The translations under genes and the position numbers were made by a program. The notes under the pieces are model-generated. The model searched no databases, was not told the origin of the DNA, and saw only the letters and a list, made by a program, of their open reading frames with translations. Shown here one piece after another: positions 14,027-57,345 of a DNA stretch of 64,000 nucleotides. Position 1 is the first letter of the stretch, and every line of letters starts with the position of its first letter. This DNA comes from an uncultured Bacteroidales bacterium (GTDB lineage Bacteria > Bacteroidota > Bacteroidia > Bacteroidales > Bacteroidaceae), in the NCBI GenBank assembly GCA_902799985.1, contig CADCCR010000011.1:153-64152 (forward strand), in the 5' to 3' direction.

Positions 14027-15892
14027 TTAGCCGAACATCTTGTCGATTGCCTCCTGCTGGAGGATGGTGAGTATGGTCTGGCCGCTGGGAGATTGATTGG
14101 GGTTCTCGCACTGGAAGAGGTCGCCGATGAGCGTCTCCATCTGCACAGGCGAGAGCACTTCGCCCACTTCGATGGCGTTGTGGCGGGCCAGCACGAGGGC
14201 CAGCTTGTGGTGCAAGGCATCGGTGTGTCCGCCATCCTGCACCTTGACCGACTCCACCATCTCCTGCACGACGGCCAGCGGGTCGTTCTGCCCCGAGGGT
14301 GTGCCGCCGATGGAGAAGCTGCTGCCGCCCAGGGGCGAGATGTCGAAGCCAAGGGCCCGCACGTCGTCGAGGATTGCTGTGAGCACGGCCGCATCGGAGG
14401 GCGACAGCTCGAGCAGCTCGGGAAAGAGGAGACCCTGTGTGGCAGCGTTGTGCTCCTGCATCTGCTTCATGTAGCGCTCGTAGAGGATGCGTATGTGGGC
14501 ACGCCGCTGGTCGACCATCATCAGGCCCGACTGCACGGCGGTGAGGATGTACTGCCCCTTGAACTGGAAGTGCTGCGAGCTGCGGTCCGCCTCGGGGAAA
14601 AGGGTGTCATTAGGGGCAGGTGGCAAGGGGCAAGGGGCAAGAGGATTGTCAGGGATGTCCGACTCTCCATTGTATTCTCTTGCTCCTTGCTCCTTGCCCC
14701 TTGCTCCCTCGAGCTCCTTGCCCCTTGCTCCCTCGAAGAGTTTCTCCCATTGCCGGACAGGTTTCCTGTTCTGGCTGTTGGTGCTGAAGGGGTTGTAGCT
14801 GACATCGAGCTGTACGCGGGGTGCCTTGATGCCGGACAGGTCACCGCCCTGGTAGGTCGGGATGTCGGGCCGTCCCTCCACGTCGAAGTCGATGGTCGGC
14901 ACAGCATTGAACTTGCCCAAGGCATCGCGCACGGCTGCCACGATGATGCTCCATATCTCCTGTTCGTTCTCGAACTTAATCTCTGTCTTTGTGGGATGTA
15001 TGTTGACGTCGATAGCGGCAGGGTCCACCTGGAAGAAGATGAAGTAGGGCACTTGGTCGCCCTCGGGGATGAGGTGGTTGAAGGCTTCCATCACAGCATA
15101 GTGGAAGCGCGGATGGCGCATGAAGCGACCGTTGACGAAGAGGTACTGCGCAGCTCCCTTCTTGCGTGCCGAATCGGGCTTGCCCACGAAGCCGCTTATC
15201 TTCACCAGCGTCGTCTCTACCTGCACCGGCAGGAGCTGTTCGCTGAGTTTCTTGCCGAAGATGTTCACGATGCGTTGCAGGGAACTGCCTGCCGGAAGCT
15301 GCATCAGGTTGTTGCCGTTGCTTGACAGGGAGAAGGTGACGGAGGGGTTGACCAGCGCGATGCGCTCGAAGTCCTGAATGATGTTGCTCAGCTCCGTCTG
15401 GTTCGTCTTGAGGAACTTCCGTCGCGCCGGCACGTTGAAGAAGAGGTTGCTGACCTCGAAGTTGGCACCCACCGGGCACGAACACACTTCCTGCCCCACA
15501 AAGCGCGACCCATCGATGCTCAGCCGCACACCCAGCTCCTGCTCAGCCGTGCGTGTGGTGAGGCGCACCTGTGCCACGGCAGCGATGGAGGCCAGTGCTT
15601 CGCCGCGGAAGCCCATGGTGCGGAGCTTGAAGAGGTCCTCGGCATGCAGTATCTTCGACGTGGCATGGCGCTCGAAGGCCATGCGGGCATCCGTCTCGCT
15701 CATCCCCTTGCCGTCGTCGATGACCTGAATGGACGTACGTCCCGCATCCTGCACCAGCACATCGATGGTCGATGCACCGGCATCCACGGCATTCTCCATC
15801 AGTTCCTTGATGACGGATGCCGGACGCTGCACAACCTCGCCGGCTGCGATTTGGTTGGCAACAGAATCGGGAAGAAGGTGTATGATGTCCAT
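14027..15892 (-). CDS. mutL: DNA mismatch repair protein MutL
   Basis: The N-terminus IHLLPDSVANQIAAGEVVQRPASVIKELMENAVDAG is a GHKL ATPase signature, and a C-terminal dimerisation region follows. Confidence 0.95.
   Translation of the reverse strand: MDIIHLLPDSVANQIAAGEVVQRPASVIKELMENAVDAGASTIDVLVQDAGRTSIQVIDDGKGMSETDARMAFERHATSKILHAEDLFKLRTMGFRGEALASIAAVAQVRLTTRTAEQELGVRLSIDGSRFVGQEVCSCPVGANFEVSNLFFNVPARRKFLKTNQTELSNIIQDFERIALVNPSVTFSLSSNGNNLMQLPAGSSLQRIVNIFGKKLSEQLLPVQVETTLVKISGFVGKPDSARKKGAAQYLFVNGRFMRHPRFHYAVMEAFNHLIPEGDQVPYFIFFQVDPAAIDVNIHPTKTEIKFENEQEIWSIIVAAVRDALGKFNAVPTIDFDVEGRPDIPTYQGGDLSGIKAPRVQLDVSYNPFSTNSQNRKPVRQWEKLFEGARGKELEGARGKEQGAREYNGESDIPDNPLAPCPLPPAPNDTLFPEADRSSQHFQFKGQYILTAVQSGLMMVDQRRAHIRILYERYMKQMQEHNAATQGLLFPELLELSPSDAAVLTAILDDVRALGFDISPLGGSSFSIGGTPSGQNDPLAVVQEMVESVKVQDGGHTDALHHKLALVLARHNAIEVGEVLSPVQMETLIGDLFQCENPNQSPSGQTILTILQQEAIDKMFG
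14613..14734. repeat. Inverted repeat with tandem-repeat arms, in frame in the mutL linker
   Basis: GGCAAGGGGCAAGGGGCAAGAG (14622-14643) pairs with CTCTTGCTCCTTGCTCCTTGCC (14677-14698) at 20 of 22 positions. The region encodes ...EGARGKELEGARGKEQGARE...NPLAPCPLPPAP. Confidence 0.85.
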
Positions 15893-16231: not shown

Positions 16232-18138
16232 GGGTTATTGCTTTTGTTGTCGGTGACTTTGGAGTCTTCTGGGTTCTCTGGGTTCTCTGAGTTCTCTGAA
16301 TTCTCTGAGTTCTCTGAGCTCTCTGAGCTCTCTGAATTCTCTGAGTCTTCTGAATTCTCTGAGTTCTCGGTATTCTCAGGGACTGTCTCCTCCCCCTTGG
16401 GGGAGGTTGGGAGGGGGCTTTCCTCTTCGGTGGAGGTTGTAAGGGGGCTTGAGTTCTGGTCGGGGGCTTCTATCCCCTTTTGCTTCTTGATGTCGCTGAG
16501 CTTCTGCTTGGGAGCCGCGTGGCGTACGCTCTCCTTGAGTTCGCTGCCGGCCTTCTTGGGGCGCCATTCGAAAATGTCATCCTTGTTGAGCGGACGTATG
16601 TAGTCGAACCATTCGAAGTTCTGCAGGTAGAGCATGTCCTGTGGGATAAGTGGAATGGGATACATGGTGCCGGTGGCAGCAGGCATCCAGATGCGGTCCA
16701 CCTTCCTGTCTGTCAGGAACATCTTGAGCAGAGTCGTCTCGGTATGGTTCATCTCCACCATGATGCTGTCCTCGTCGAAAGGATAGTAGTTGACGAAGAC
16801 GTTGCCCTCCGAGGTGCTGAGATACATTTCCCCATTCTTGAAGTAGGAGTGCATCTCGTGTCCTGACACTTGGTTGTAGTGTGTGTCGTCGAGCCGTTCC
16901 ACCGAGAGCGCCTGCCGCAGCACCAGCGTGCTGTCAATGGTGCTGTCGTTGAAGAAGATTTGTATCTCTTCGCCCAGCTGCTGCTGTCCCGCTTGCCAGA
17001 GGATGGGGTCGCGATACATGACGAGGATGCTGTCGCGTGTGTCGTAGACCATCGAGTCGCACACCGCCTGAATGTCGCGGCGGAAGGCTCGCATGTGGTG
17101 GTAGGCATGAATGACGCGGTAGGTGGAGTCCGTGTCGAGGTTGAACGTAAAGACCTTGAACGTGTCGGCATGCGCATACATCGTGTCCTGCTGGCTGTAG
17201 TCGATGCAGACGGCACGGTCGGTCGTCATGACGTATTCGGTGCTGTCCTCGTAGTAGCAGTATTCGCCGGTGAACATGTTCTTGTTGACGACATCGGAGT
17301 AGACCACATTGCCGAATGCCTCGGCTGTGGAGGTATCGTCGTTCCACACTACGCTGTCGCCCACGAGCCGTTTGCCGTTGTTGGTCAGAATGCTGCGGTC
17401 CAGCAGATGCGAGTGGTTCGTCTGCGTGTAGTAGTAGCCCAGCTCGGAATAGATATGGTTCTCGCCATTCTCTATATTGGAGGGGCCTACGATGTGTGCA
17501 ATGGCCGTCAGCGTGTTGTAGTGCAGCGTGTCGGAGATAAGCACCGTCTCAGGCTTGGCTGGAGGTGCGGGATTGACCAGCCGGACATTGTAGTTGAAGA
17601 CTGCTTCGTGGGTGGCCGGACTGTACTCTCCCCAGTCGCTGGTCAGCTCGTTGCCTTGGTCGAGAAGCCGTCCGCCCTCGAAGAAATAGCCGAGGTCGTA
17701 GAGACGGTCGTAGTCGAGGCTGTCCGTGTAGATGGTCGTGGTGCCGTGTTCGAGCACGACATCATATCGGGCACGTGCCAACTGGTCCAGGCCGTTGTAG
17801 TAGAGCACTTCGCTTTTGAGCATGAGTGTGTCGCCCTGGTTCAGGAGGACATGGCCGAAGGCATCAAGGGAGTTTGTGGATTCGTAGAAGAGCGCGCTGT
17901 CGCAGTAGAGCAACGCACCGTCGTGGCTGAACTGTACATGGCCCACCAGGAACTGTGCCGTGCGGTGCTTCCGCTCGTCGAAGAAGAGACGGTCGGCATG
18001 CAGCAAGTGCACCTTGCTGTCGGACGGCGGTCTGTTCTTGTCGGTCCGCCGCTGAGGCGTTACTGCCATAAGCAGACAAAGGCCGAAGAACAGTGACGCA
18101 CAGAGGATATATAGCCGCTGACCTTTCACTTTACCCAA
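16228..18138 (-). CDS. OstA/LptD-N-terminal-like domain protein with a repeat-derived acidic C-terminal tail
   Basis: N-terminal anchor, then repeated beta-jellyroll-like segments (LLHADRLFFDE...GHVQFSHDGALLYCDSALFYESTN...). Its position between the SurA-like genes and mutL is typical of Bacteroidota. Confidence 0.75.
   Translation of the reverse strand: MGKVKGQRLYILCASLFFGLCLLMAVTPQRRTDKNRPPSDSKVHLLHADRLFFDERKHRTAQFLVGHVQFSHDGALLYCDSALFYESTNSLDAFGHVLLNQGDTLMLKSEVLYYNGLDQLARARYDVVLEHGTTTIYTDSLDYDRLYDLGYFFEGGRLLDQGNELTSDWGEYSPATHEAVFNYNVRLVNPAPPAKPETVLISDTLHYNTLTAIAHIVGPSNIENGENHIYSELGYYYTQTNHSHLLDRSILTNNGKRLVGDSVVWNDDTSTAEAFGNVVYSDVVNKNMFTGEYCYYEDSTEYVMTTDRAVCIDYSQQDTMYAHADTFKVFTFNLDTDSTYRVIHAYHHMRAFRRDIQAVCDSMVYDTRDSILVMYRDPILWQAGQQQLGEEIQIFFNDSTIDSTLVLRQALSVERLDDTHYNQVSGHEMHSYFKNGEMYLSTSEGNVFVNYYPFDEDSIMVEMNHTETTLLKMFLTDRKVDRIWMPAATGTMYPIPLIPQDMLYLQNFEWFDYIRPLNKDDIFEWRPKKAGSELKESVRHAAPKQKLSDIKKQKGIEAPDQNSSPLTTSTEEESPLPTSPKGEETVPENTENSENSEDSENSESSESSENSENSENSENPENPEDSKVTDNKSNNP
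16261..16377. repeat. 9-bp tandem repeat, about 13 units (TGAGTTCTC family), coding for an (E-N/D/S-S)n tail
   Basis: Units run from 16261 to 16377. On the coding strand they give ENTENSENSEDSENSESSESSENSENSENSENPENPEDS. Confidence 0.9.
16389..16450. repeat. Two tandem copies of the GC-rich palindromic element, in frame in the OstA-like CDS
   Basis: cctcccccttgggggaggttgggagggggctt (16389-16420) and tcctcttcggtggaggttgtaagggggctt (16421-16450). They translate as SPLTTSTEEESPLPTSPKGEE. Confidence 0.85.
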
Positions 18139-51695: not shown

Positions 51696-51955
51696 CGTGC
51701 GGATTTGAAATCCGCACGCTTGAATATAGGGATTTATAATCCCGCAACTCTTTTTGCCGCATTTCAAATGCTTATATCCAATGCTGTCGGATTGCAAATC
51801 CGACAGAACATTACAAGAAGCGCCCCGTGCTTATTTTGGAAGCGCGGATTGCAAATCCGACAGAACATTACAAGAAGCGCCCCGTACTTATTTCGGAAGC
51901 GCTAGGCGCTTATTCCGGAAGCACAGGGCGCTTATTTTGGAAGCGCACGCCGTGT
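51696..51955. repeat. Composite repeat region: GGATT-loop-AATCC hairpins, a roughly 57-bp direct duplication and 22-bp hairpin units
   Basis: Hairpins at 51696-51716, 51728-51742, 51784-51804 and 51843-51860. A direct repeat spans 51787-51843 and 51845-51900. 22-bp units run to about 51955. Confidence 0.85.
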
Positions 51956-51965
51956 CTGTATGAAG

Positions 51966-53452: not shown

Positions 53453-54289
53453 TCAGCGTTTCTCGGCCAACGCCTTGCAGTACTTCCCGCCGAACATGCA
53501 GTAGAGTCCGAGCACGACGAAGGGGATAGAGAGCAGTTGGCCCATGTTCAGGAGCATGCCGCTTTCGAAGTCCACCTGGTTCTCCTTGGTGTACTCGATG
53601 AAGATGCGGCTCAGGAAGATCATGAAGAGGCAGAGCCCGAAGAAGAAGCCTGTGCCCACTTTCTGCGGGTAGCGGCGGTACAAAATCCAGCTGATGACGA
53701 AGAATATGGCGTAGCAGATGGCCTCGTAGAGCTGTCCGGGATGGCGCGGAAGCTGGTCGACGCGCTCGAAGATGAACGCCCAGGGCACGTCGGTCGGTCG
53801 GCCGATAATCTCGGAATTCATCAGGTTGCCGATGCGGATGGCACAGGCGCAGACAGGAGTGACAATGCCGACGTTGTCCAGCACGTGCATGATGTTGAGC
53901 TTCACGTGGCGGGCATAGAGCCAGAGGGCAAGCATCAGTCCCAGCGTACCGCCGTGACTGGCAAGGCCTTCGTAGCCGGTGTACGTCCAGCCCTTCCCGG
54001 GTATGTTGCGGGCAGGCAGTATCATCTCGATGGGGTGCGACAGGTAGTAGCCGGGCTCGTAGAACAGACAATGTCCCAGACGCGCACCGATGAGGATGCC
54101 CAGGAAGCAGTACAGGAACATCGGGTCGAACTTCTCTTCGGCAATCTTCTGCTGCCGGTAGAGCATGTGCATCAGCAGATAGACGCTCATCAAGCCGACT
54201 GCCCAGCACAGCGAGTACCAGCGAATGGCAAAGAAACCCAGGTCGAGGGCAATGATGTCGGGGTTCCAAGTGATGAATTGGAATTGCAT
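53453..54289 (-). CDS. lgt: Prolipoprotein diacylglyceryl transferase
   Basis: ...[14 protein letters not shown]...[15 protein letters not shown]...[24 protein letters not shown]...HPGQLYEA. Length 278 aa. Confidence 0.9.
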
Positions 54290-54292
54290 TTC

Positions 54293-54329
54293 AAATTAAA
54301 GATTAAGGATTAAAGATTAAAGATTAAGG
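54293..54329. repeat. Left arm of an inverted octamer-repeat pair flanking the four-helix-bundle gene
   Basis: aaattaaagattaaggattaaagattaaagattaagg, complementary to 54789-54822. Confidence 0.85.
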
Positions 54330-54368
54330 CTTGATTGTCTTGTAGGTGTGTTTCTGTTTAATTAATGT

Positions 54369-54761
54369 TTAAAGCTTTTGTTGTGATGGGCTGTAGTCGC
54401 CATTGTCTATTATTGATTTGTGTAAAGCAGACAGCTGTCTGTTAATAGGTATAATCTGGCTTTCTAATTCTTTTAGTTGCTCTTCGCTAATATAGTTCTC
54501 GTCCTGCGACAGCTCTAACTCGCACATAACTTCATTAAGTGAACCAAAGGCAATTTGTATAAAATGCGCCTTCTCTTTGGCAGAGAAGCGTCCGAATCCT
54601 TCAGCGATATTAATCGGGATTGACATGACAGCTCGCCGGAGCTGGTCGCACAGACCATATCGCTCATCAGCAGGGAAGGTTTTAATAAGCTTACACACAG
54701 CATGAGACAATGCTTTTGCTCGCTTGTAAACCTCTAACTTCCGATAGTAAAACTCTTCCAT
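54369..54761 (-). CDS. Four-helix-bundle protein (23S rRNA intervening-sequence protein family)
   Basis: YRKLEVYKRAKALSHAVCKLIKTFPADERYGLCDQLRRAVMSIPINIAEGFGR...AFGSLNEV..EL matches the family pattern. The gene is AT-rich compared with its neighbours. Confidence 0.85.
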   Translation of the reverse strand: MEEFYYRKLEVYKRAKALSHAVCKLIKTFPADERYGLCDQLRRAVMSIPINIAEGFGRFSAKEKAHFIQIAFGSLNEVMCELELSQDENYISEEQLKELESQIIPINRQLSALHKSIIDNGDYSPSQQKL

Positions 54762-54788
54762 CCTGCAATGGACTTTAGATACAAACAG

Positions 54789-54822
54789 CTTTAATCCTTA
54801 ATCTTTAATCTTTAATCCTTTT
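54789..54822. repeat. Right arm of the inverted octamer-repeat pair
   Basis: ctttaatccttaatctttaatctttaatcctttt. Confidence 0.85.
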
Positions 54823-54827
54823 CAACG

Positions 54828-55925
54828 CTACACGTTGAAACGGAAATGCATGATGTCGCCGTCCTGCACCACATAGTCCTTGCCTTCCACACTCATCTTG
54901 CCTGCTTCGCGGACGGCAGCCTCGCTACCATATTTAATATAGTCCTCGTACTTGATGACTTCGGCGCGGATGAAGCCCTTCTCGAAGTCGGTGTGGATGA
55001 CGCCGGCACACTGCGGGGCCTTCCATCCGCGGCGGAACGTCCAGGCCTTCACCTCCATCTCGCCTGCCGTGATGAACGTCTGCAGGGTGAGAAGATGGTA
55101 GATGGATTTGATGAGGCGGTTGCAGCCGCTCTCCGTTAGGCCCATGTCTTCGAGGAACATCTGCTTCTCCTCGTAGGTCTCCAGCTCGGCGATGTCGGCT
55201 TCGGTCTGTGCCGAGATAATCATCATCTCAGCATCCTCGCCGGCGATGGCCTGCTTGACGGCTTCGGTATAGGCGTTGCCTGTGGCGGCAGAGGCGTCGT
55301 CGACATTGCAGACGTAGAGCACAGGTTTCGTGGTGAGCAGGAAGAGACTGTTGGCAGCCGCCAGTTCGTCCTCGGTCTCGAAGCTGACGCTCCGGGCACT
55401 GAGGCCTTTGCTGAGGGCGTCCTGATAGCGGAGCAGGACGTCGAGCTCCACTTTGGCCTGCTTGTCGCCGCCCACGCGTGCCTGCTTCTCCACCTTCTTG
55501 ATGCGGTTCTCTATCGTTTCGAGGTCCTTGATTTGCAGCTCGGCGTCGATGATTTCCTTGTCGCGGACGGGGTCCACGCTGCCGTCGACGTGCACGATAC
55601 CGTCGTTGTCGAAGCAGCGGAGCACGTGGATGATGGCATCGCACTCGCGGATGTTGGCCAGGAACTGGTTGCCCAGTCCTTCGCCTTTGCTGGCTCCCTT
55701 CACGAGTCCGGCAATGTCGACAATGTCGCAGACGGCGGGCACGATGCGTCCCGGATGCACGAGTTCGGCAAGGCGGGTCAGTCTTTCGTCTGGCACAGTG
55801 ACTTGTCCGAGCTGGGCATCAATGGTGCAGAAGGGGAAATTGGCAGCCTGAGCTTTCGCGCTCGACAGGCAGTTGAAGAGGGTCGACTTGCCGACATTGG
55901 GCAGTCCTACTATTCCGGCTTTCAT
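54828..55925 (-). CDS. ychF: Redox-regulated ATPase YchF
   Basis: MKAGIVGLPNVGKSTLFN..., a C-terminal TGS-like region ...KAWTFRRGWKAPQCAGVIHTDFEKGFIRAEV, and a length of 365 aa. Confidence 0.95.
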   Translation of the reverse strand: MKAGIVGLPNVGKSTLFNCLSSAKAQAANFPFCTIDAQLGQVTVPDERLTRLAELVHPGRIVPAVCDIVDIAGLVKGASKGEGLGNQFLANIRECDAIIHVLRCFDNDGIVHVDGSVDPVRDKEIIDAELQIKDLETIENRIKKVEKQARVGGDKQAKVELDVLLRYQDALSKGLSARSVSFETEDELAAANSLFLLTTKPVLYVCNVDDASAATGNAYTEAVKQAIAGEDAEMMIISAQTEADIAELETYEEKQMFLEDMGLTESGCNRLIKSIYHLLTLQTFITAGEMEVKAWTFRRGWKAPQCAGVIHTDFEKGFIRAEVIKYEDYIKYGSEAAVREAGKMSVEGKDYVVQDGDIMHFRFNV

Positions 55926-55931
55926 TGTTTC

Positions 55932-55964
55932 AATTCATAATTCATAATTCACAATTCATAATTA
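55932..55964. repeat. Octamer tandem repeat (AATTCATA family) immediately upstream of ychF
   Basis: aattcataattcataattcacaattcataatta. Confidence 0.8.
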
Positions 55965-57166: not shown

Positions 57167-57247
57167 CGAAAAAAAATCAGAATGTGAGGTTGTATGCTAT
57201 AAAAATTATCTTCTTTCAAGGGAACAGCGACACTTTCCTCCGTGTCG

Positions 57248-57345
57248 GGCGCCCTGAGCTTATCCCAGAAGCGCCCCGTGCTTATTTCGGAAGCGCCTCG
57301 CGCTTATCTCGGAAGCGCAGGGCGCTTATTTTGGAAGCGCAGGCA
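57248..57345. repeat. 22-bp hairpin array (about 4 units) just downstream of the stop at 57359
   Basis: Units start at 57271, 57293 and 57315 (gcgccccgtgcttatttcggaa, gcgcctcgcgcttatctcggaa, gcgcagggcgcttattttggaa). Confidence 0.9.

What the first reader, a model, noticed from the sequence alone, without database searches (positions are those of the whole stretch)
54293..54822. Four-helix-bundle (23S-IVS-type) gene carried as a stem-loop cassette between ychF and lgt
An AT-rich 130-codon gene of the family first noticed inside 23S rRNA intervening sequences lies between two housekeeping genes on the same strand. It is bracketed by complementary arms of about 34 nt, made of ATTAAAG/ATTAAGG octamer repeats (54293-54329 and 54789-54822).

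In a ychF-to-lgt read-through transcript the arms would pair into a long duplex, with the ORF in the loop. That is the geometry of rRNA intervening sequences excised by RNase III.

This suggests a mobile or excisable RNA-level cassette. It is also an example of how the octamer-repeat hairpins in this genome may be generated.
Basis: partly seen in the sequence, partly recalled or inferred. Interest (0 to 1): 0.6.

Follow-up and report, generated by a model that had tools for sequence, protein, structure and literature searches.

The report
Hairpin-armed four-helix-bundle gene in operon
A small, well-conserved gene of the family first seen inside ribosomal-RNA "intervening sequences" sits between two housekeeping genes of a rumen Prevotellaceae bacterium, enclosed by two mirror-image runs of a 7-base repeat; gene and arms are inherited and exchanged together, but always at this one site, and what they do is still unknown.

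Summary
A 130-aa PF05635/TIGR02436 gene (54369-54761, minus strand) lies between ychF and lgt. It is bracketed by complementary arms of about 34 nt made of GATTAAA/GATTAAG repeats; these are heptamers, not octamers.

All 11 PF05635 genes of this genome are armed in the same way, each with its own repeat unit, and all are co-directional with their neighbours.

All 35 relatives found by a protein search (96-54% identity; rumen Prevotellaceae, Prevotella, Hoylesella) sit in the same ychF-lgt spacer. In an unbiased sample of 28 same-genus genomes, only 2 carry this cassette and 13 have a 0-12 nt junction.

Gene and arms travel as one unit. The arm unit follows the gene tree better than the flank tree, and cassette dS (0.23-0.32) is well below flank dS (0.65-0.99). 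The protein is under purifying selection (dN/dS 0.04-0.09).

The arms pair in the predicted RNA fold and an RNase III gene is present, but arm mismatches show no G·U excess.

The arms belong to about 1,200 intergenic arrays in this genome, most of them solo.

The scan has flagged this architecture in many other genomes. I found no paper describing it.

The parts
54828..55925 (-). ychF (ribosome-binding ATPase/GTPase), the upstream host gene
   Evidence: PF06071 E 1e-40 and PF01926. It is on the same strand as the cassette.
54816..54844 (-). Local hairpin with the ychF stop codon (TAG) in its loop. The 12 nt after the stop are the reverse complement of the last ychF codons.
   Evidence: Inverted repeat I8, 12 nt and 92% complementary. 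In the orthologues the complement co-varies with synonymous codons such as Arg CGT/AGA. It is not a general feature of arrays: 2 of 333 array-adjacent stops have one.
54787..54822 (-). Arm 1 (5' arm in the mRNA sense): about 4.3 GATTAAR heptamers, purine-rich on the sense strand
   Evidence: It pairs with arm 2 in the RNA fold.
54762..54786 (-). Arm-1 'tail' (GCTGTTTGTATC...) and the short leader before the ATG; no room or motif for a promoter of its own
   Evidence: A tail of the form G[CT]TTG[AG]TTGT recurs next to GATTAAR arrays elsewhere in the genome. No Bacteroidetes-type or sigma-70-type promoter match on this strand.
54369..54761 (-). 130-aa four-helix-bundle protein gene (PF05635 / TIGR02436)
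   Evidence: AlphaFold model pLDDT 89. Foldseek matches: 2GSC TM 0.83-0.95, 2RLD, Avd 4DWL TM 0.72. dN/dS 0.04-0.09.
54332..54368 (-). Arm-2 tail (reverse complement GCTTGATTGTCTTGTAGG...) between the stop codon and arm 2
54293..54331 (-). Arm 2 (3' arm): about 4.7 YTTAATC heptamers, pyrimidine-rich on the sense strand, ending 3 nt before the lgt ATG
53453..54289 (-). lgt (prolipoprotein diacylglyceryl transferase), the downstream host gene
   Evidence: PF01790 E 1.1e-58.

Best explanation
This is an IVS-type cassette living between two cistrons instead of inside 23S rRNA. It consists of a functional PF05635 four-helix-bundle gene plus two inverted arrays of a heptamer repeat, and the whole forms one heritable unit.

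It has no recognisable promoter or terminator of its own and is read from the ychF-lgt operon transcript.

In that transcript the two arms, which start just after the ychF stop and end 3 nt before the lgt start, pair into a duplex of about 25-34 bp. That duplex closes off the 460-nt loop holding the ORF.

By analogy with ORF-bearing 23S IVS, the duplex is most likely cut by RNase III. At the least it acts as a structural bypass that brings the ychF stop and the lgt start together. Either way, the insert is tolerated in a junction that is otherwise 0-12 nt.

The cassette is an old resident of this one site in Prevotellaceae. It has been lost or replaced many times and passed between lineages as a gene-plus-arms unit, apparently by homologous recombination in the conserved flanks.

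Shown: anatomy, recurrence, site fidelity, co-inheritance of gene and arms, purifying selection, predicted pairing, presence of an RNase III gene.

Inferred: co-transcription, pairing in vivo, RNase III cleavage, and any role of the protein on the arms.
For: - Anatomy and family assignment.
- All 11 copies in the genome are armed and on the same strand as every flanking gene that could be assessed (20 of 20). In five related genomes 23 of 24 are armed.
- The RNA fold pairs the arms (z -3.8).
- No terminator-like site and no promoter consensus lie between ychF and lgt.
- An RNase III gene is present.
- The Coxiella IVS has an ORF of the same family, a 28-bp stem and GACAGAT heptamers, and RNase III cuts at the first repeat (PMC4990558).
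- All 35 homologues sit in the ychF-lgt spacer.
- Presence is polymorphic, with 0-12 nt junctions in 13 of 28 genus genomes and at least 8 presence/absence changes on the flank tree.
- The arm unit changes 7 times on the cassette tree but 13 times on the flank tree.
- AU tests reject congruence: p 0.03 and 6e-5, with groups named after the trees were seen.
- Between this genome and L042-44, cassette dS is 0.23-0.32 against ychF 0.65-0.79 and lgt 0.84-0.99. Against L058 the relation is reversed.
- dN/dS is 0.04-0.09.
- Both arms always change together across orthologues: GATTAAR, GATTAGR, GGATGAR, GAATAAG.
Against:
- Mismatches in the arms show no sense-strand wobble signature: G·U 30 against A·C 69 in 70 cassettes, and 49 against 68 in 71 gene-less hairpins. 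Complementarity may therefore be kept by a DNA-level copying process rather than by selection on RNA pairing.
- Three orthologues (L050, L053, L055) keep an intact gene but have lost arm 2, so the stem is not indispensable.
- The 23S rRNA of this genome is not assembled, so a true IVS copy could not be compared.
- The L042-L076 set was found through the protein, so it cannot give the frequency of the cassette.
Confidence: 0.45

Rival explanations
1. Repeat-binding regulator. The four-helix-bundle protein, a homopentamer like its solved relatives, binds tandem heptamers in RNA leaders or in DNA. The two arms are its own autoregulatory operators. The hundreds of solo arrays just upstream of start codons are its trans targets, one regulon per paralogue. 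This could coexist with the RNA-stem model.
For: - The solved relatives were deposited with five chains (2GSC, 2RLD), and Avd sits in the DGR ribonucleoprotein (8UBE).
- Array length has a sharp mode at 4 full units, or 32 nt, whatever the unit.
- Solo arrays are purine-rich on the sense strand (195 against 86, p 7e-11) and end a median of 18 nt before the next start codon.
- The cassette arm type matches the dominant array type in G000 (AAR 103 against AGR 10) and in G011 (0 against 47).
- The arm unit tracks the gene tree.
- The protein is under strong purifying selection.
Against: - G017 has an AAR-armed cassette but more AGR than AAR arrays (15 against 106).
- G007 and G022 (89% and 92% complete) hold 38 and 67 AAR matches, but no AAR-armed gene was found among their 9 and 4 copies.
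- Orthologous genes at one site can carry unrelated units: an 8-mer TAGTTAAG against a 10-mer AGAAGATAGA (L081 and L083).
- There are more array families than genes.
- No binding data exist.
Confidence: 0.2
2. DNA-level foldback element. The arms are terminal inverted copies of a dispersed repeat (array plus tail). A trans-acting enzyme inserts or rearranges this repeat in single-stranded or hairpin DNA. The gene is cargo, and RNA pairing is incidental.
For: - There is no RNA wobble signature.
- The arms share a conserved tail with about 45 dispersed GATTAAR loci.
- There are 128 short gene-less hairpins that abut coding ends.
- A different PF05635 gene (34% identity, other arms) occupies the same spacer in G031.
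- Whole-spacer replacement between near-identical flanks is seen in L057 against L017.
Against: - No transposase, HUH, nuclease or reverse transcriptase gene is in or beside the cassette. No PF00078 or PF13366 match was found in the assembly.
- No target-site duplication is visible at filled against empty sites.
- All 35 homologues sit at a single site.
- The left recombination breakpoint appears to lie inside ychF, as in ordinary homologous exchange.
Confidence: 0.15
3. Passive coincidence. A small horizontally acquired gene lies between two ordinary intergenic arrays. Their complementarity is kept by slippage and template switching in a quasi-palindrome, and the hairpin has no function.
For: - Arrays are everywhere: about 927 are intergenic.
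- Concerted change of both arms can be produced by DNA copying alone.
- Three orthologues lack arm 2.
Against: - Inverted same-family arms occur around 11 of 11 and 23 of 24 PF05635 genes, against about 0.5% of host genes.
- Arm 2 is in the orientation that solo arrays avoid.
- The same design is documented for the family inside 23S rRNA.
Confidence: 0.1

Closest known systems
ORF-bearing intervening sequences (IVS) of 23S rRNA (Coxiella burnetii S23p IVS, Leptospira; Warrier et al. 2016, PMC4990558)
   Same: Both have an ORF of the same protein family (PF05635/S23p) in the loop of a long terminal stem. The stem is built partly of tandem heptamers. The element is about 430-530 nt and is read as part of a host transcript. 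Its distribution among relatives is sporadic.
   Different: The host context is a spacer between two protein-coding genes, not helix 25 or 45 of 23S rRNA. RNase III excision is shown for the IVS but untested here. The Coxiella ORF is decaying and apparently untranslated, whereas this one is under strong purifying selection. This cassette is kept at one site across genera.
Intergenic heptamer tandem repeats (TAACTGA in Beggiatoaceae, PMC4679880; GGGAATC/GGGGAYT in Xanthomonas and Nostoc, PMC4692102; cyanobacterial STRR, from my own knowledge)
   Same: These are arrays of 7-nt units that are mostly intergenic and oriented with the downstream gene, close to the start codon. About four units are preferred. 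The arms here are two such arrays.
   Different: Those papers name no associated protein family and treat mostly direct repeats. Here the arrays are AT-rich and cannot form G-quadruplexes, yet they show the same 4-unit mode. Pairs of them enclose a PF05635 gene.
REP/REPIN-RAYT and Ssn/NTS systems (PMC11893778)
   Same: One small gene is framed by inverted copies of a repeat that is also dispersed in many gene-less copies in the same genome.
   Different: RAYT is a Y1/HUH transposase and Ssn is a GIY-YIG ssDNA nuclease. The protein here is a four-helix bundle with no nuclease motif. The link between gene and dispersed repeats is only loose.
Avd, accessory protein of diversity-generating retroelements
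   Same: The fold is the same (4DWL TM 0.72, rmsd 1.8 A) and the Pfam family is the same.
   Different: It scores below the Avd equivalog cut-off (23.6 against 80 bits). No reverse transcriptase was found anywhere in the assembly. There is no template or variable repeat.

Membership tests
PF05635 / TIGR02436 four-helix-bundle (23S rRNA IVS protein) family | Sequence match above the curated cut-offs | tested here: met
   Pfam 118.1 bits (cut-off 33.8). TIGR02436 109.7 bits (cut-off 24).
PF05635 / TIGR02436 four-helix-bundle (23S rRNA IVS protein) family | Four-helix-bundle fold like 2GSC and 2RLD | tested here: met
   The model has pLDDT 89 and four long helices. Foldseek gives 2GSC TM 0.83-0.95 and 2RLD TM 0.75-0.90. 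phmmer gives 2GSC E 7.7e-16.
23S rRNA intervening sequence (IVS) | Inserted in helix 25 or 45 of a 23S rRNA gene | tested here: not met
   It lies between ychF and lgt. No 23S rRNA is assembled in this genome.
23S rRNA intervening sequence (IVS) | Terminal inverted repeats forming a long stem that encloses the element | tested here: met
   The arms are 34 nt and 88% complementary. A 25-bp helix appears in the MFE and centroid folds.
23S rRNA intervening sequence (IVS) | Excision from the precursor by RNase III | not testable with these tools
The only related evidence is that an rnc gene is present.
DGR accessory protein Avd | Match to the Avd equivalog model, and a neighbouring reverse transcriptase with template and variable repeats | tested here: not met
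   NF033474 scores 23.6 bits against a cut-off of 80. No PF00078 match in the assembly, which is 79% complete.
REP/REPIN-RAYT or Ssn/NTS type repeat-plus-enzyme system | The framed gene encodes a Y1/HUH transposase or a GIY-YIG nuclease | tested here: not met
   The only match is PF05635. There is no padloc match.
REP/REPIN-RAYT or Ssn/NTS type repeat-plus-enzyme system | Dispersed repeats co-occur with the cognate gene across genomes | tested here: inconclusive
   G000 and G011 fit. G017 does not. G007 and G022 have many GATTAAR arrays but no GATTAAR-armed gene was found. The genomes are incomplete.
Transposon / MITE | Target-site duplication, and copies of the same element at many sites | tested here: not met
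   No duplication is seen at filled against empty junctions. All 35 homologues are at one site.

The most novel reading that the evidence does not exclude
PF05635 four-helix-bundle proteins are sequence-specific readers, or maintainers, of tandem heptamer arrays. Each pentamer would recognise about 4-5 units of its own heptamer. The gene sits inside a hairpin of its own operators. The hundreds of sense-oriented arrays in front of start codons would be its targets. This would give the long-unexplained bacterial heptamer repeats (STRR, GGGAATC, TAACTGA and others) and the rRNA intervening sequences a common protein partner, and would define a new kind of post-transcriptional repeat-protein system.
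Probability: 0.15. Interest if true: 0.85.

Novelty: new variant of a known kind. Interest (0 to 1): 0.62.

Why it matters
The origin and purpose of rRNA intervening sequences and of their S23p ORF have been open since about 1990. Bacterial heptamer repeats have also been described several times without an explanation.

This locus shows the same gene-in-a-heptamer-stem design in an ordinary operon. The gene is clearly functional: it is under purifying selection and has been kept at one site across genera. That makes the system testable in cultivable Prevotella and Hoylesella strains.

The locus also shows that gene and arms are inherited as one unit. The 4-unit length rule holds for AT-rich units as well, which argues against the G-quadruplex explanation offered for Xanthomonas and Nostoc.

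If the arms are processed by RNase III, this would be an mRNA counterpart of rRNA fragmentation. It would also be a way for an insert to sit harmlessly in a tightly coupled gene junction.

Tried and rejected
- Rfam: no family matches anywhere in the window.
- Other cargo families: no PF13366 (GxxExxY/PDDEXK_3) match. The other long-gap array pairs merely flank normal host genes, or AT-rich stretches without an ORF.
- DGR link: no reverse transcriptase was found, and the protein scores below the Avd cut-off.
- Defence link: no padloc match.
- Sense-RNA wobble test: I expected G·U to exceed A·C if the stem were selected in RNA. I found the opposite or no bias.
- 'One master gene per repeat family' (REPIN-like): rejected as a strict rule.
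- Stop-codon hairpin as a general anchor of arrays: rejected, 2 of 333.
- A hairpin over the lgt start codon: it is weak, also present at empty sites, and probably a by-product of the conserved F-I codons.
- Own promoter or terminator in the cassette: none found with the sigma-70 scan, the terminator scan or the Bacteroidetes TTTG...TAnnTTTG pattern.
- Literature: five full-text searches found no paper linking PF05635 genes to heptamer-array hairpins outside rRNA.

Full report
**1. What is there**

On the minus strand the window carries three genes in a row:
- ychF at 54828-55925;
- a 130-aa ORF at 54369-54761;
- lgt at 53453-54289.

The ORF is a clear member of PF05635 (23S_rRNA_IVP; E 2.5e-34) and of TIGR02436 'four helix bundle protein'.

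An AlphaFold model built on 21 orthologues has pLDDT 89 and four long helices. Its closest solved structures are:
- XCC0516 (2GSC; TM 0.83-0.95) and BT_0352 (2RLD), each deposited with five chains;
- then the DGR protein Avd (4DWL; TM 0.72).

It is not an Avd by NCBI's model (23.6 bits against a cut-off of 80). No reverse transcriptase is found in the assembly.

The ORF is bracketed by two complementary arms, 54787-54822 and 54293-54331. They are 34 nt long and 88% complementary; the best register gives 28 nt at 96%. Each arm is 4.3-4.7 tandem copies of a 7-nt unit, GATTAAA/GATTAAG, on the sense strand of arm 1.

Arm 1 starts 6 nt after the ychF stop codon. Arm 2 ends 3 nt before the lgt start codon.

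Folded as RNA, the cassette pairs the two arms into a 25-bp helix in both the MFE and the centroid structure. The z-score is -3.8.

**2. It is a rule in this genome, not a coincidence**

The window comes from a 3.05-Mb assembly with 54.6% GC, 215 contigs and 79% completeness. It is a rumen Prevotellaceae MAG.

The assembly holds 11 PF05635 genes. Every one of them is flanked in the same way: an upstream tandem array of 7-8-mers, and downstream the reverse complement of that array.

The unit differs between the 11 copies. Examples are GTGGTTA, GCAAGGG, GTGAAGA, AGTTAAG, AATTCAT, TTGACCA and TAGTCGTT.

All 11 are on the same strand as every flanking gene that could be assessed (20 of 20). They have GC3 of 0.35-0.57, against 0.65-0.85 for the neighbours.

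In five related genomes, 23 of 24 copies are armed.

Among about 2,100 host genes, only about ten lie between complementary arrays. In those cases the arrays are simply the contents of two adjacent spacers.

**3. The arms belong to a genome-wide population of arrays**

TRF finds about 1,210 arrays of period 6-10, of which 736 have period 7. About 927 are intergenic.

Period-7 arrays have a sharp length mode at four full units, 32 nt (397 of 736). These units are AT-rich, so the G-quadruplex explanation given for the same four-unit preference in Xanthomonas and Nostoc (PMC4692102) cannot be general.

There are 128 short gene-less hairpins. They occupy spacer types in near-baseline proportions (77% co-directional). 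They abut the coding ends, at a median of 16 nt and 9.5 nt.

Most arrays, however, are solo. Only 225 of 1,210 have an inverted partner within 750 nt. Solo arrays in co-directional spacers have these properties:
- they are purine-rich on the sense strand (195 against 86, p 7e-11);
- they end a median of 18 nt before the next start codon.

This matches what was described for TAACTGA repeats in Beggiatoaceae (PMC4679880).

The GATTAAR family has 45 loci in this genome: about 38 solo arrays, 5 short hairpins and this cassette. In co-directional spacers the solo arrays have GATTAAR on the sense strand in 22 cases against 3. Many share a tail of the form G[CT]TTG[AG]TTGT with the cassette arms.

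Arm 1 therefore has the usual orientation of such arrays. Arm 2 has the orientation that solo arrays avoid.

**4. History of this cassette**

*Unbiased sample.* In 28 same-genus genomes the ychF-lgt synteny is kept. The spacer between the two genes is:
- 0-12 nt in 13 genomes;
- filled by other hairpins or arrays in 12. One of these is G036, whose 26-nt spacer is a solo three-unit TTTAATC array identical to the distal end of arm 2;
- filled by this cassette in only 2 (G017 and G011);
- filled by a different PF05635 gene in one (G031; 34% identity, other arms).

*Search by protein.* A search of one genome per species found 35 homologues from 96% down to 54% identity. They include Prevotella phocaeensis, Hoylesella enoeca and H. 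pleuritidis. All 35 lie in the ychF-lgt spacer. This lineage is therefore an old, site-faithful resident, not an element that hops between sites.

*Arm evolution.* The arm unit is lineage-specific: GATTAAR, GATTAGR, GGATGAR, GAATAAG. Both arms always change together. Three orthologues keep the gene but have lost arm 2.

*Selection.* The protein is under strong purifying selection, with dN/dS of 0.04-0.09. This contrasts with the decaying ORF of the Coxiella IVS.

**5. Gene and arms move between lineages as one unit**

Four results support this.

1. On trees of the same taxa, the arm-unit type needs 7 changes on the cassette-protein tree but 13 on the YchF+Lgt tree.

2. This genome's closest flank relative, L058, carries a GATTAGR cassette. 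Its lgt dS is 0.25, but its cassette is only 71% identical in nucleotides. This genome's closest cassettes (L042-44) show the opposite pattern: cassette dS of 0.23-0.32, but flanks at dS 0.65-0.99.

3. AU tests reject the alternative groupings, with p 0.03 and 6e-5. The groups were named after the trees had been seen.

4. Presence or absence needs at least 8 changes on the flank tree. Between near-identical flanks (L057 against L017) the whole spacer is replaced exactly between the ychF stop and about the third lgt codon. There is no target duplication.

The identity profile against L043 suggests that the left breakpoint lies about 260 nt inside ychF and the right one within the first 40 nt of lgt. 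Ordinary homologous recombination in conserved flanks is therefore sufficient. No element-encoded mobility is required or shown.

**6. Tests of how it works**

*RNA level.* The geometry, the co-directionality, the absence of promoter or terminator motifs and the presence of an RNase III gene all fit the IVS analogy. In Coxiella, RNase III cuts the 28-bp stem at the first of the GACAGAT heptamers.

However, arm mismatches show no excess of G·U over A·C on the sense strand:
- 30 against 69 in 70 cassettes;
- 49 against 68 in 71 gene-less hairpins.

Complementarity may therefore be kept by DNA-level copying, such as slippage plus template switching, rather than by selection on RNA pairing.

*Trans relation between the gene and dispersed arrays.* I counted three-unit matches to GATTAAR (AAR) and GATTAGR (AGR) arrays per genome:

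| Genome | AAR / AGR matches | Cassette at ychF-lgt |
|---|---|---|
| G000 | 103 / 10 | AAR-armed |
| G011 | 0 / 47 | AGR-armed |
| G017 | 15 / 106 | AAR-armed |
| G007 | 38 / 6 | none |
| G022 | 67 / 35 | none |

G000 and G011 fit a link; G017 does not. In G007 and G022 no AAR-armed gene was found anywhere in the assembly. Orthologous genes at another site carry unrelated units in two genomes (L081 and L083). The link is loose at best.

**7. A local peculiarity**

The 12 nt after the ychF stop codon are the reverse complement of the last ychF codons. This gives a 10-14-bp hairpin with the stop codon in its loop (repeat I8).

Across the orthologues, this complement co-varies with synonymous changes in ychF. 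Examples are CCGTTTCAACG/CGTTGAAAAGG, AGATTCAACG/CGTTGAATCT and AGGTTCAATG/...TTGAACCT.

It is not a general property of arrays: only 2 of 333 array-adjacent stops have one.

Together with the arm stem, this hairpin would place the ychF stop and the lgt start side by side at the base of the structure. This is why I favour a 'bypass or processing' role that keeps a formerly tight junction working. That step is inference.

**8. Comparison with what is known, and novelty**

The closest known thing is the ORF-bearing 23S IVS. This cassette works like one in its geometry but fails the defining feature of lying in rRNA.

It is not an Avd or DGR component, not a RAYT or Ssn system, and not a transposon or MITE (see the membership table).

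Five full-text searches found no paper that links PF05635 genes to heptamer-array hairpins between protein-coding genes.

Earlier notes of this scan report the same architecture in many other genomes. I used them as leads to papers and tested some of their claims here:
- that the arm unit goes with the gene: agrees;
- that the cassette is a mobile insert at many sites: not for this lineage;
- that dispersed arrays are the arms of this element: largely contradicted, since most arrays are solo and persist where no matching gene is found.

**Verdict**

This is a real, non-random feature and a new variant of a known kind. The mechanism is still open.

Noticed in passing
window 54816-54844: A hairpin encloses the ychF stop codon. 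The sequence after the stop is the reverse complement of the last ychF codons and co-varies with synonymous codon changes across orthologues. Only one other such case exists among 333 array-adjacent stops in the genome (C24:27855-29007).
   Followed up: yes
window 55932-55963: A solo AATTCAT(A) array of 4.6 units lies immediately upstream of the ychF start, with no inverted partner. It belongs to the same unit family as the arms of the PF05635 cassette on contig C3.
   Followed up: partly
window 14612-14731: A gene-less hairpin of the GCAAGGG/CTTGCYC heptamer family (4.3 and 7.1 units, 37-nt loop). The family matches the arms of the PF05635 cassette on contig C160.
   Followed up: no
whole genome (G000): Period-7 arrays have a sharp mode at 4 full units, 32 nt (397 of 736), although most units are AT-rich. 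The four-unit preference reported for G-rich heptamers therefore cannot be explained by G-quadruplexes alone.
   Followed up: partly
G000 contigs C132:203-517 and C160:108-425: Two contigs of the MAG carry PF05635 genes at the same homologous site (the flanking gene is visibly homologous), but with different arms (GGTTAGT against GCAAGGG) and clearly diverged proteins. This points to either strain heterogeneity in the bin or paralogous loci.
   Followed up: no
window 51790-51960 and 57240-57330: Copies of another dispersed repeat of about 60 nt (GGATTGCAAATCCGACAGAACATTACAAGAAGCGCCCCGTRCTTATTTYGGAAGCGC), tandem at 51.8 kb and with internal palindromes. It is unrelated to the heptamer arrays.
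   Followed up: no
window 16268-16368 and 63970-64063: Long arrays of a 9-mer (TCTGAGTTC, 11 copies) and a 10-mer (TTTCCTAGGC, 9 copies).
   Followed up: no
L016 (G027) and L017 (G007), ychF-lgt spacer: In these relatives an AATTATG array runs into lgt and appears to supply its ATG start codon and first codons (MNCELFI...). Arrays can therefore be recruited into coding sequence.
   Followed up: no
L050, L053, L055: Orthologous cassettes with an intact gene and arm 1 but no arm 2. The gene's stop is followed by TCCT and then the lgt ATG.
   Followed up: partly
G000 C73:4240-5053, C2:17948-18293, C118:1122-1636: AT-rich stretches (GC 0.35-0.41) of 350-800 nt between complementary arrays with no long ORF. 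These may be decayed cassettes.
   Followed up: no
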